A stretch of DNA of 15,824 nucleotides, taken from the IMG/VR virus record IMGVR_UViG_2663763282_000011; one strand, given 5' to 3'. The translations under genes were made by a program, and so were the position numbers. A model generated the notes under the pieces. It was not told the DNA's origin. It saw nothing but the letters and a program-made list of their open reading frames with translations, and searched no databases. This stretch comes from a virus (Duplodnaviria; Heunggongvirae; Uroviricota; Caudoviricetes). Of the stretch, positions 13,568-14,363 are shown piece after piece. Each line of letters begins with the position of its first letter. Positions within the stretch are counted from its first letter, which is position 1.

Positions 13568-13816
13568 CTCACTGAGATTAAAGCAAAGCGCAAAATTGCG
13601 CTGGCTACATCCCTCACATCTGAGGACTGTTAACCAGCAGGCCGGAATATATTCAGAAACTACGAAATTTTCGCAGTTTAATTACTCGTCAGCTTAATCG
13701 CTAACCCGCTCTGATATTTTCGGAAACCTCAATTTGAGGAAGTCGGCGAGGTAACTGTTTGATATTCCCGATAGCGCAAAGATGCGCGGTCGGGCAGAAT
13801 GACCACCACCTCAATC

Positions 13817-13851
13817 GTGACGGAGAGTGACAACCAGTGACACACCGTGAC
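13817..13851 (+). repeat. Four direct copies of GTGAC(A) at exact 10-bp phasing (13817, 13827, 13837, 13847)
   Basis: Read directly: cGTGACggagaGTGACaaccaGTGACacaccGTGACaaaaag. Helical phasing suggests a protein-binding array such as integrase arm-type or excisionase sites near attR (inference). Confidence 0.5.
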
Positions 13852-13969
13852 AAAAAGACGGTTTAACCGTTCATTAAAAATCGACGTGATTTTGTGCTTT
13901 CCGGATGACGTGGCCAACGTCATTTTTTAGCGAAAAATTCTGATTAAGGTCACTGGCTGAACGGTCATA

Positions 13970-14086
13970 ATGACCACGCAGACCATCGAGGCAACCATAG
14001 CGATCATCGTTACGGTTGGAGCTTTTCCGCCATTGGTGGAAAAGGTGCACATCTGGATCATCATTACGGTGATCAAGGGTATGTAA
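13970..14086 (+). CDS. Candidate small hydrophobic (single transmembrane helix) protein, 38 aa: MTTQTIEATIAIIVTVGAFPPLVEKVHIWIIITVIKGM
   Basis: Manual translation. No strong SD. The antisense frame is also open (45 aa), so coding status is uncertain. Confidence 0.25.
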   Translation: MTTQTIEATIAIIVTVGAFPPLVEKVHIWIIITVIKGM

Positions 14087-14204
14087 AACCCACCAGCCTG
14101 ATTAAAGGTTAACCGGAAAAAAAATCCGGTAGCCCCGTTATGGGGATCCCCATATCGACATTAACGCCCCTCATGAATTGGTGCGCTTCCCCCTGGAAAG
14201 ATTA

Positions 14205-14297
14205 CCCGCCTGTATATTTCTTGTGTCTATTTGTTCCACGTTGTTTCATACAGTGCACCGAACGGTGTAGTTAATGGTGTAGTCAATTTGCGATTTT
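14205..14297. promoter_or_regulatory. Right-junction region carrying a second copy of the capsid-operon control motifs (CCCGCCTGT at 14205-14213; TTGTTCCACGTTGTT at 14231-14245) plus tandem direct repeat GGTGTAGT(T/C)AAT (14264-14286)
   Basis: The 15-bp TTGTTCCACGTTGTT is identical to 6629-6643, and CCCGCCTGT is identical to 6724-6732. Both were compared by eye. Confidence 0.4.
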
Positions 14298-14363
14298 TGG
14301 CACTTTTTCAATGAAAATTGTTTGATCGAATCAATGACTTGATGTAGTGGTAAAAGGACATAT

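What the first reader, a model, noticed from the sequence alone, without database searches (positions are those of the whole stretch)
13568..14363. Insertion directly 3' of phoQ; about 800 bp of non-coding right arm with a candidate small membrane protein
The last island gene ends at 13567 and phoQ ends at 14364. The intervening 800 bp has no ORF of 60 aa or more with coding character, yet is rich in palindromes (GGGGATCCCC at 14142-14151, CCGGAAAAAAAATCCGG at 14113-14129) and repeats. As I recall the K-12 arrangement, phoQ is followed within tens of bp by the next gene (ycfD/roxA); that gene is absent here, implying the element sits right at the 3' end of the phoPQ operon and could affect its termination or read-through. 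A 38-aa strongly hydrophobic ORF (13970-14086) is the kind of small membrane peptide seen in type I toxin systems or in membrane-acting superinfection functions, but it has no good SD and its antisense is also open.
Basis: partly seen in the sequence, partly recalled or inferred. Interest (0 to 1): 0.4.

Follow-up and report, generated by a model that had tools for sequence, protein, structure and literature searches.

The report
Non-coding right end of phage satellite
The 800 bases next to phoQ are the gene-free right end and attachment arm of a known type of phage satellite island; the small "membrane protein" reading frame looks like a chance ORF, though the arm does carry a repeat family I found no description of.

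Summary
Bases 13568-14355 are island DNA. They are missing from K-12, and 89% of complete E. coli genomes have an uninterrupted roxA-phoQ junction. The island is a capsid-forming PICI of the EcCIEDL933 / Sakai "Sp7" type, and the window is near-identical to Shigella flexneri SFBU1023. It sits at a 10-bp core, GGACATATTT (14356-14365), that overlaps two bases of the phoQ stop codon. This site and island type are already annotated in O157 Sakai.

The 38-aa hydrophobic ORF is not supported. It is intact in 13 of 71 related islands and replaced by hydrophilic or 16-aa frames, or absent, in the rest. Substitutions show no codon periodicity, indels break the frame, and no protein family matches.

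The arm is a mosaic of non-coding modules:
- Three copies of a ~48-bp repeat, each an IHF-like box plus a hairpin whose stem covaries.
- Four GTGAC repeats spaced exactly 10 bp apart.
- Back-to-back terminator hairpins.
- A conserved 12-bp-stem palindrome.
- A minus-strand Chi site.
- A conserved attachment arm with integrase arm-type repeats and an IHF-like site.

An effect on phoPQ read-through is plausible but untested. As filed the finding is ordinary. The repeat family and the island's Chi density (13 sites against 0.46 expected) are the only mildly new points.

The parts
13286..13567 (+). Last island gene, 'orf93' (unknown function, phrog_1561). It is the constant left neighbour of the arm.
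   Evidence: A homolog precedes the arm in about 70 of 74 related loci.
13563..13607 (+). Repeat unit 1: an imperfect IHF-like box (TAACTCACTGAGA, 2 mismatches to YAANNNNTTGATW), then hairpin AGCGCAAAATTGCGCT at 13587-13602. The unit overlaps the orf93 stop codon.
   Evidence: flags the hairpin as terminator-like on the minus strand.
13608..13700 (+). Insert between units, with hairpins CCTCACATCTGAGG (13612-13625) and AAACTACGAAATTTTCGCAGTTT (13657-13679).
   Evidence: The block is present or absent as a unit in other islands.
13701..13749 (+). Repeat unit 2: CTAACCCGCTCTGATATTTTCGGAAA, then hairpin CCTCAATTTGAGG at 13727-13739.
13750..13795 (+). Repeat unit 3: GGTAACTGTTTGATATT, an exact IHF consensus on the minus strand at 13752-13764, then hairpin GCGCAAAGATGCGC at 13774-13787.
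13817..13851 (+). Four GTGAC direct repeats at exactly 10-bp spacing (13817, 13827, 13837, 13847). Presumed protein-binding iterons; the binding protein is unknown.
   Evidence: 3 overlapping matches against 0.09 expected; none elsewhere in the window. They differ from the ori iterons TGTCTACC.
13850..13870 (-). Weak intrinsic terminator on the minus strand: ACGGTTAAACCGT followed by CTTTTTG.
13903..13929 (+). Intrinsic terminator on the plus strand (GGATGACGT-ggcca-ACGTCATTTTTT). Probable end of the packaging-operon transcript.
   Evidence: Sequence; a 9-bp hairpin at the 3' end of the fold. Other islands carry a different, perfectly bidirectional terminator at the same position.
13963..13975 (.). 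Inverted repeat GGTCATAATGACC, a recurrent junction between modules.
13970..14086 (+). The 38-aa hydrophobic ORF. Judged a chance reading frame.
13992..14018 (.). Conserved 12-bp-stem palindrome (minus strand CAACCGTAACGA-tga-TCGCTATGGTTG). It is the most conserved piece of the mosaic spacer.
14060..14087 (-). Promoter-like site on the minus strand: TTTACA, 16 nt, AATGAT.
   Evidence: The TTTAC(A/C) hexamer and an NATNAT box 16-17 nt downstream persist across three different sequence versions (read). No transcript evidence.
14090..14097 (-). Chi site (GCTGGTGG on the minus strand), at the boundary between the mosaic part and the conserved part.
   Evidence: The 17-nt string containing it was used to retrieve 74 loci. 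Conservation rises to its right.
14112..14157 (.). Conserved block with palindrome ACCGGAAAAAAAATCCGGT (14112-14130) and a 22-bp near-perfect palindrome CGTTATGGGGATCCCCATATCG (14136-14157).
   Evidence: The block is shared even by islands with a different integrase arm.
14231..14287 (+). Integrase arm-type sites: TTGTTCCAcgTTGTTTCA (14231-14248) and the tandem GGTGTAGTTAAT / GGTGTAGTCAAT (14264-14287).
   Evidence: The same block occurs upstream of int in the left arm of RM6927 and Sakai. Int has an Arm-DNA-bind_3 domain.
14329..14341 (+). IHF consensus AATCAATGACTTG, 15 bp from the core.
   Evidence: The ATCAA part is conserved in all six aligned arms.
14356..14365 (.). attR core GGACATATTT, the direct repeat of attL. 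It overlaps two bases of the phoQ stop codon (14364-14366).
   Evidence: attL, attR and attB compared. The annotated end of Sakai Sp7 coincides with it.
14364..15824 (-). phoQ, intact at 486 aa.

Best explanation
The interval is the non-coding right end (attR, the arm distal to int) of a capsid-forming phage-inducible chromosomal island of the EcCIEDL933 / Sakai Sp7 type. A P4-type tyrosine integrase placed the island at a 10-bp core immediately after the phoQ stop codon. Read left to right, the arm has four parts.

(1) The 3' untranslated tail of the plus-strand packaging operon. It carries three ~48-bp repeat units, each an IHF-like box plus a short hairpin, and a 93-bp insert with two more hairpins.

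(2) Four phased GTGAC iterons, then two back-to-back terminator hairpins. I infer that these close the packaging operon and stop transcription entering from the host side.

(3) A mosaic spacer that is swapped, shortened or deleted between islands. The 38-aa ORF lies in it by chance. Its only conserved element is a 12-bp-stem palindrome.

(4) A minus-strand Chi site, then about 265 bp of conserved arm: two palindromes, integrase arm-type repeats that also occur in the left arm, an IHF-like site, and the core.

Shown here: the island boundary and core, the arm-type repeats in both arms, the modular mosaic, covariation in the hairpins, and non-conservation of the ORF. Inferred: that IHF, Int and an excisionase bind this arm, that the terminators work, and that Chi protects the element or sets the recombination boundary. 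PhoQ itself is unchanged. Its native downstream sequence and any read-through into roxA are replaced by about 500 nt of antisense island sequence.
For: Island identity. Int, D5-type primase, HNH and TerL domains are present. The same gene order with capsid, protease, portal, head closure, connector, HNH, TerS and TerL occurs at roxA-phoQ in RM6927, 2014C-3097 and Sakai, where it is annotated 'prophage Sp7'. TerL is 100% and the arm 99.9% identical to S. flexneri SFBU1023. The cf-PICI preprint lists Shigella flexneri among host species and notes several attB sites.

Boundary. attL is gtatGGACATATTTtatc, attR is aaaaGGACATATTTattc, and K-12 attB is gtatGGGCATATTTattc. The junction is empty in 4822 of 5426 genomes.

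Arm sites. A 58-bp block with GGTGTAGTTAAT x2 is present in both arms. An IHF consensus lies at 14329-14341.

ORF not coding. It is intact in 13 of 71 loci. Substitutions fall 10/16/18 across codon positions, and indels of 1, 2 and 4-5 nt occur. Pfam and NCBIfam give no hit.

Mosaic. There are 41 distinct versions of the interval, 197-763 bp long, and none contains a large gene.

Repeat unit. I found 65 distinct copies. A perfect stem of 5 bp or more occurs in 81% against 10% of shuffles, with more than 12 stem sequences. All 5 pairs covary, and 0 of 500 shuffles reach the observed score.

Terminators. Chi.
Against: There is no direct evidence for binding of IHF, Int or an excisionase, or for termination. 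The minus-strand terminator has only a 5-bp stem. The plus-strand terminator was not flagged by the consensus scan, although it folds as a hairpin followed by six T. The GTGAC iterons lie about 500 bp from the core, too far for a conventional excisionase site, and no binding protein is identified. The function of the repeat units is unknown and their strand of action is unresolved, because wobble pairs do not favour either strand. One RNase E CLASH chimera in Sakai shows plus-strand RNA beyond the terminator, so termination is not complete. The 38-aa ORF could still be a lineage-specific young gene; its absence elsewhere does not prove that it is not translated here.
Confidence: 0.8

Rival explanations
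1. The spacer encodes a small hydrophobic type I toxin or membrane peptide, controlled by an antisense RNA. The candidates are the 38-aa plus-strand ORF or the 49-aa minus-strand ORF.
For: Both frames are open and hydrophobic. A promoter-like site on the minus strand lies upstream of the minus ORF, and convergent terminators sit on its far side. The minus-frame segment MVCVVIMT(I/V)Q..TLIR(I/T)FR recurs in 28 of 71 loci, and a short version of it has a good AGGAG Shine-Dalgarno sequence.
Against: The plus ORF is intact in only 13 of 71 loci, all near-identical. In other islands the same start gives hydrophilic 42-aa or 16-aa peptides. The minus ORF is absent in 43 of 71 loci and has a variable N-terminus. 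There is no third-codon bias in either frame, and indels break the frame. Neither ORF in the window has a Shine-Dalgarno sequence. Pfam and NCBIfam give no hit. The Sakai Ribo-seq small-gene list has nothing in the homologous arm.
Confidence: 0.06
2. The spacer is a gene for a minus-strand small RNA of about 120-230 nt. It would be transcribed from the conserved TTTAC(A/C) promoter next to Chi and end at the minus-strand terminator, acting in trans or as an antisense to the tail of the packaging operon.
For: The -35-like hexamer and a -10-like NATNAT box at 16-17 nt persist across three unrelated downstream sequences. In every version a hairpin followed by a T run, competent on the minus strand, lies 40-230 nt downstream. 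The conserved 12-bp stem contains an invariant G.U and two further wobble changes that pair only on the minus strand.
Against: The second hairpin favours the plus strand (read). There are no double compensatory changes. The minus-strand fold is not better than shuffles, z = -1.1. Rfam has no match. The only transcript evidence found, one CLASH chimera in Sakai, is from the plus strand. The transcribed content differs completely between islands, which is odd for a conserved RNA.
Confidence: 0.15
3. The repeats and palindromes are functionless debris: scars of repeated recombination and duplication at the end of the island.
For: There is extreme mosaicism with recurrent junction sequences (GGCGGTAACT, GGTCATAATGACC). 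Each unit starts with a copy of the orf93 stop region, as expected from duplication. Unit number varies from 0 to about 9 per arm. Some arms (e.g. L091, L102) have no units, so units are dispensable for persistence.
Against: More than 12 different stem sequences keep perfect complementarity at a fixed position next to a conserved flank. All 5 pairs show changes on both sides, and 0 of 500 shuffles match. Neutral decay would not preserve this. The IHF-like box is kept in 58 of 65 units.
Confidence: 0.2

Closest known systems
Capsid-forming PICI EcCIEDL933 (E. coli O157; annotated in Sakai as prophage Sp7)
   Same: Same integration site between roxA and phoQ and same core. Same gene order: int, primase, capsid, protease, portal, head closure, connector, HNH, TerS, TerL, then the 93-aa ORF. 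Same conserved arm from Chi to the core.
   Different: The window's copy is the Shigella flexneri version. Its capsid gene has an in-frame TGA. Its arm has 3 repeat units plus the GTGAC/terminator module, where Sakai has 7 units and a single bidirectional terminator.
Lambda-type attP P arm (integrase arm-type sites, IHF and excisionase sites, core)
   Same: A short core is duplicated at both ends. Arm-type repeats occur in both arms and are distinct from the core. An IHF consensus lies next to the core. The integrase has an N-terminal arm-binding domain.
   Different: The non-coding stretch is about 790 bp, far longer than a lambda P arm. No excisionase sites have been identified. The outer 500 bp is a mosaic unrelated to recombination specificity, because it is shared by islands with other integrases.
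RIP/RIB elements (BIME-1): IHF site flanked by REP palindromes at 3' ends of E. coli transcription units (from my own knowledge)
   Same: A repeated extragenic unit that combines an IHF consensus with a palindrome, placed after the last gene of an operon.
   Different: The palindromes here are 5-7 bp with free sequence, not the REP consensus. The units are tandem with a 48-bp period. They were found only in E. coli/Shigella satellite arms: not in phage records, and there were no blastn matches to the window's arm in related islands of 79 other species.
Type I toxin-antitoxin loci (hok/sok, ldr, ibs, tisB, shoB, zor)
   Same: A short hydrophobic ORF with an open antisense frame, in mobile DNA.
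   Different: The peptide is not conserved, has no Shine-Dalgarno sequence, matches no family, and shows no codon signature.

Membership tests
Capsid-forming PICI (cf-PICI) | Integrase at one end and a specific att site with a direct-repeat core | tested here: met
   Int domains. Core GGACATATTT at attL and attR, and an empty attB in K-12.
Capsid-forming PICI (cf-PICI) | Own capsid, protease, portal, head-tail connectors, HNH, TerS and TerL, with no tail or lysis genes, in about 15 kb | tested here: met
   HNH and TerL by Pfam. The remaining genes are taken from the RefSeq annotation of co-linear islands. The island is about 14.4 kb within the window (its left junction lies just outside); full islands in RM6927 and Sakai measure 15.1-15.5 kb. 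In the window the capsid gene carries a premature TGA, and part of TerS is masked by N.
Capsid-forming PICI (cf-PICI) | Primase/replicase with an adjacent iteron origin | tested here: met
   D5_N/DUF5906/Pox_D5 primase. TGTCTACC iterons at 5523-5760.
Capsid-forming PICI (cf-PICI) | Induction by a helper phage and packaging into satellite-made small capsids with helper tails | not testable with these tools
   Experimental property, reported for EcCIEDL933 in the preprint read.
Type I toxin-antitoxin | Small hydrophobic peptide conserved among homologous loci | tested here: not met
   The 38-aa frame is intact in 13 of 71 loci and hydrophilic or truncated elsewhere. The minus frame is absent in 43 of 71 loci.
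Type I toxin-antitoxin | Membership of a described toxin family | tested here: not met
   No Pfam or NCBIfam match at E <= 10, apart from a chance-level bacteriocin hit at E = 0.12.
Type I toxin-antitoxin | Antisense RNA overlapping the toxin mRNA | tested here: inconclusive
   Promoter-like and terminator-like sites exist on both strands. The only transcript evidence is one plus-strand CLASH chimera in Sakai.
Lambda-type attP arm | Arm-type integrase sites in both arms, distinct from the core | tested here: met
   GGTGTAGTTAAT x2 and TTGTTCCA-NN-TTGTTTCA occur in both the attL and attR arms.
Lambda-type attP arm | IHF site(s) between the arm-type sites and the core | tested here: met
   Consensus match only: AATCAATGACTTG at 14329-14341. 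Binding was not tested.
Lambda-type attP arm | Excisionase (RDF) binding sites in the arm distal to int | tested here: inconclusive
   The four phased GTGAC repeats look like an RDF array but lie about 500 bp from the core. Nothing comparable was found in 14100-14355.
RIP/BIME-1 repeats | IHF consensus within the unit | tested here: met
   Strict WATCAANNNNTTR in 32 of 65 units, and the relaxed form in 58 of 65.
RIP/BIME-1 repeats | Flanking REP-consensus palindromes | tested here: not met
   The stems are 5-7 bp with at least 12 unrelated sequences; none resembles the ~35-nt REP consensus as I recall it. No Rfam or other library match.

The most novel reading that the evidence does not exclude
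The ~48-bp units (IHF-like box plus a hairpin of free sequence but conserved pairing) that fill the tail of the packaging operon in E. coli/Shigella PICIs may be an undescribed, satellite-specific cis element. They could act as an RNA- or ssDNA-level array that insulates or terminates transcription across the island-host boundary or stabilises the late mRNA. IHF might organise the long arm. The adjacent Chi site might set the boundary of frequent RecBCD-driven replacement, which would explain the mosaic.
Probability: 0.3. Interest if true: 0.45.

Novelty: new member of a known kind. Interest (0 to 1): 0.27.

Why it matters
As filed, it matters little. The island type, its integration next to phoQ and its boundaries have been annotated in O157 Sakai, and the candidate toxin does not hold up. 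Two things could interest specialists.

First, E. coli PICIs of different packaging types and with different integrases share a common right-end module: orf93, a hairpin-repeat array, a Chi site and a palindrome block. The PICI papers I read do not mention it.

Second, the insertion cuts phoPQ off from its native downstream sequence and from roxA in about 11% of E. coli genomes and in this Shigella-type copy. This could alter the 3' ends of phoPQ transcripts or roxA expression, and is easy to test.

Tried and rejected
- Rfam, at gathering thresholds and at permissive E-values, found nothing in the window or the arm, including Esr41, AgvB, AsxR and Sok. Esr41 is in any case on a different island, SpLE1.
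- tRNA/tmRNA scan: none, so the site is not a tRNA-type att.
- The arm is not a cos site. There is no lambda-type cosN above chance in the window. In classical PICIs that share this arm, the two cosN copies lie upstream of orf93.
- The GTGAC repeats are not P4-crr-like replication iterons. The origin iterons next to the primase are TGTCTACC, and GTGAC clusters occur nowhere else.
- A CsrA-sponge reading of the units was dropped. By eye, GGA motifs in 13560-13935 number 6, about the chance expectation.
- The arm is not a defence or accessory-gene hotspot. In about 70 related loci the orf93-to-Chi interval is 169-735 bp and never holds a large gene.
- Cross-genus conservation is absent. 79 TerL loci from other genera have no DNA match to the arm; the 4 with an orf93-like gene have no repeat anchors downstream.
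- Phage records: one marginal 59-bp match only.
- The apparent loss of TerS in the window is an artefact of N-masking at 11191-11352.

Full report
**1.

The last island ORF (93 aa) ends at 13567. phoQ (486 aa, minus strand) has its stop codon at 14364-14366. The two palindromes are at the stated coordinates, and the 38-aa ORF at 13970-14086 exists. It is hydrophobic (mean hydropathy 1.23) and has no Shine-Dalgarno sequence. The opposite strand is also open, with a 49-aa ORF at 13927-14076. Two mechanical ORFs of 60 aa or more touch the interval (a 64-aa one on the minus strand and a 92-aa one out of frame with the last gene). Neither is annotated in any homologous RefSeq record.

**2. What the element is**

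The window carries a tyrosine integrase with an arm-binding domain, a D5-type primase, an HNH nuclease and a large terminase. Co-linear islands lie between roxA and phoQ in E. coli RM6927, 2014C-3097 and O157 Sakai. They are annotated with capsid, prohead protease, portal, head closure, connector, HNH, TerS and TerL, and have no tail or lysis genes. In Sakai the element is annotated as "prophage Sp7; untypable". This is the gene set of the capsid-forming PICIs, whose prototype is EcCIEDL933. The preprint describing them lists Shigella flexneri among host species and notes several attB sites. The window is essentially identical to S. flexneri SFBU1023: TerL 100%, right arm 99.9%.

**3. Where the island ends**

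- K-12 has 75 bp between roxA and phoQ.
- The junctions read: attL gtatGGACATATTTtatc; attR aaaaGGACATATTTattc; K-12 attB gtatGGGCATATTTattc.
- The core GGACATATTT therefore lies at 14356-14365 in the window. It overlaps two bases of the phoQ stop codon, which the island regenerates, so PhoQ is unchanged.
- Everything from 13568 to 14355 is island DNA. The K-12 locus has no match to it.
- Only 1145 of 5426 complete E. coli genomes hold any part of it. 4822 of 5426 have an uninterrupted roxA-phoQ junction.
- roxA is not lost. It sits on the far side of the island.

**4. The small ORF is a chance frame**

I retrieved 74 related loci from IMG/VR using a 17-nt conserved string and added the annotated E. 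coli loci. This gave 71 arms with an orf93 homolog, in 41 distinct versions.

- The 38-aa frame is intact in only 13 of 71, all near-identical to the window.
- In the rest the same ATG gives hydrophilic 42-aa or 33-aa peptides or a 16-aa peptide, or the start is absent.
- The minus-strand frame is absent in 43 of 71 and has a variable N-terminus.
- Substitutions are spread 10/16/18 (plus frame) and 18/10/18 (minus frame) over codon positions. Indels of 1, 2 and 4-5 nt occur.
- Pfam and NCBIfam give nothing.
- A ribosome-profiling catalogue of novel small genes in Sakai has no entry in the homologous arm. The Sakai sequence there differs from the window, so this point is weak.

**5. Anatomy of the arm**

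(a) *Repeat units, 13563-13795.* Three copies of a unit with a modal period of 48 bp, plus a 93-bp insert with two further hairpins.
- Across the 41 versions I found 65 distinct unit copies. The consensus is GCGGTAACTnGTTGATATTTnCGnAAA followed by a hairpin.
- 81% have a perfect stem of 5 bp or more at the expected place, against 10% of shuffled controls. At least 12 different stem sequences occur.
- On 20 units of identical geometry, all five pairs show changes on both sides, every cell is paired, and 0 of 500 shuffles reach the observed score. These units were preselected for having a hairpin, so one search is the unbiased figure.
- The 5' half matches the IHF consensus on the opposite strand: strictly in 32 of 65 units, in relaxed form in 58 of 65.
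- The first unit always overlaps the orf93 stop codon.
- Unit number ranges from 0 to about 9 per arm.
- The units are absent from phage records. The 79 TerL loci from other genera have no blastn match to the arm; the 4 with an orf93-like gene have no repeat anchors downstream.

(b) *GTGAC repeats, 13817-13851.* Four GTGAC at exactly 10-bp spacing, unique in the window. They differ from the origin iterons TGTCTACC next to the primase.

(c) *Terminators.* A weak minus-strand terminator lies at 13870-13850. A plus-strand hairpin followed by TTTTTT lies at 13903-13929. Sakai has a single perfect bidirectional terminator at the equivalent place.

(d) *Mosaic spacer, 13950-14087.* It is swapped or deleted between islands. 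Its conserved core is a 12-bp-stem palindrome at 13992-14018.

(e) *Chi site, 14090-14097, minus strand.* It lies within the string that is conserved in all arms.

(f) *Palindrome block, 14112-14157.* It holds two palindromes and is shared even by islands whose integrase arm is different.

(g) *Attachment arm, 14231-14365.* It holds the arm-type repeats TTGTTCCA-NN-TTGTTTCA and GGTGTAGTTAAT x2, which also occur upstream of int in the left arm. An IHF consensus lies at 14329-14341, followed by the core.

**6. How it most likely works**

Every annotated gene of the co-linear islands is on the plus strand, so the arm is the tail of the packaging operon plus the recombination arm distal to int.

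The integrase, with IHF and probably an excisionase, would assemble on 14231-14365. This rests on consensus matches and on the repeats being present in both arms; binding was not shown.

The paired terminators would close the operon and stop transcription entering from phoQ. In Sakai a single RNase E CLASH chimera joins two plus-strand fragments, one from the spacer and one next to the core. Some plus-strand RNA therefore crosses the whole arm.

The function of the repeat units is not established. The covariation points to a nucleic-acid structure rather than a sequence-specific protein site. Wobble pairs do not indicate which strand is active.

**7. Consequence for phoPQ**

No intrinsic terminator is predicted between phoQ and roxA in K-12; the first one follows roxA. 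With the island present, the sequence downstream of phoQ is island DNA. The first terminator-like site on that strand is about 500 nt inside the island.

**8. Verdict**

The finding is a correct description of the right end of a known kind of satellite at a known site. The small membrane protein is not supported. The hairpin-repeat family, the shared right-end module and the Chi density are the only points I did not find described in the PICI papers I read.

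Noticed in passing
window 1-14355 (Chi at 885, 2046, 4808, 6161, 6423, 8472, 8600, 9693, 12900 on the plus strand; 4547, 8105, 10138, 14090 on the minus strand): The island holds 13 Chi sites (GCTGGTGG), against 0.46 expected from shuffles. That is about one per 1.1 kb, several-fold denser than the E. 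coli average as I recall it. Sakai Sp7 has 13 and the RM6927 island 14, while their flanks have almost none. In related islands of other Enterobacterales the Chi sites near TerL are almost all on the gene strand.
   Followed up: partly
window 7684-7686: The major capsid gene is split by an in-frame TGA (...RKNAV*VVNST...). It reads as 291 aa plus 109 aa, against the 385-aa annotated protein in RM6927. This Shigella-type copy may be unable to build capsids.
   Followed up: partly
window 8612-8699 and 11191-11352: Two runs of N (masked sequence). The second follows a poly-G run at about 11178-11190 and removes the start of TerS and the HNH-TerS spacer, where a cos site would be expected. The apparent absence of a TerS ORF is an artefact.
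   Followed up: yes
window 5523-5760: Probable replication origin just after the primase gene: many copies of TGTCTACC / GGTAGAYA in both orientations. This resembles the P4 type I iteron TGTTCACC as I recall it.
   Followed up: no
L084, L088-L160 (classical PICIs sharing this right arm): The lambda cosN sequence GGGCGGCGACCT occurs once forward (about 1.1-1.9 kb upstream of the Chi motif) in 33 loci, and once reversed (about 0.55-1.0 kb upstream, between the small terminase gene and orf93) in 22. This matches the two cos sites reported for EcCICFT073. It shows that orf93 plus the arm is a module common to cos-type and capsid-forming PICIs.
   Followed up: partly
L162 16786-16820 and 17141-17165 (Sakai Sp7 right arm): One RNase E CLASH chimera (supplement of PMC5286369) joins two plus-strand fragments of the arm. 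They are complementary over GGTTGCCTTG / CAAGGCAACC. The window lacks the second partner sequence.
   Followed up: partly
L002 4242-4316 (K-12 phoQ-roxA spacer): An 11-bp long-range stem (GTTAAGCATCC ... GGATGCTTAAC) ends at the roxA start codon, and no intrinsic terminator is predicted between phoQ and roxA. This suggests phoPQ-roxA co-transcription with a structured roxA start. The island leaves this spacer attached to roxA.
   Followed up: no
L086, L087, L092 and similar arms (module replacing window ~13800-13990): An alternative ~200-bp module carries several hairpins (ACCCAAATTTGGGGT, TTGCAGATCTGCAA, AAACTACGGAAACTACCCGTAGTTT). By eye it has a 66-aa plus-strand ORF ending in the conserved CGTTACGGTTGA. 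It is not annotated in RefSeq.
   Followed up: no
L007 and L056 (Pluralibacter, Pectobacterium islands): Related islands in other genera end with similar arm-type repeats (GTGTAGTCAGTGGTGTAGTCAT) next to a shared host sequence ATCAGTTCATGCCGTATTTTTTCA. This implies the same integrase family using another conserved att site.
   Followed up: no
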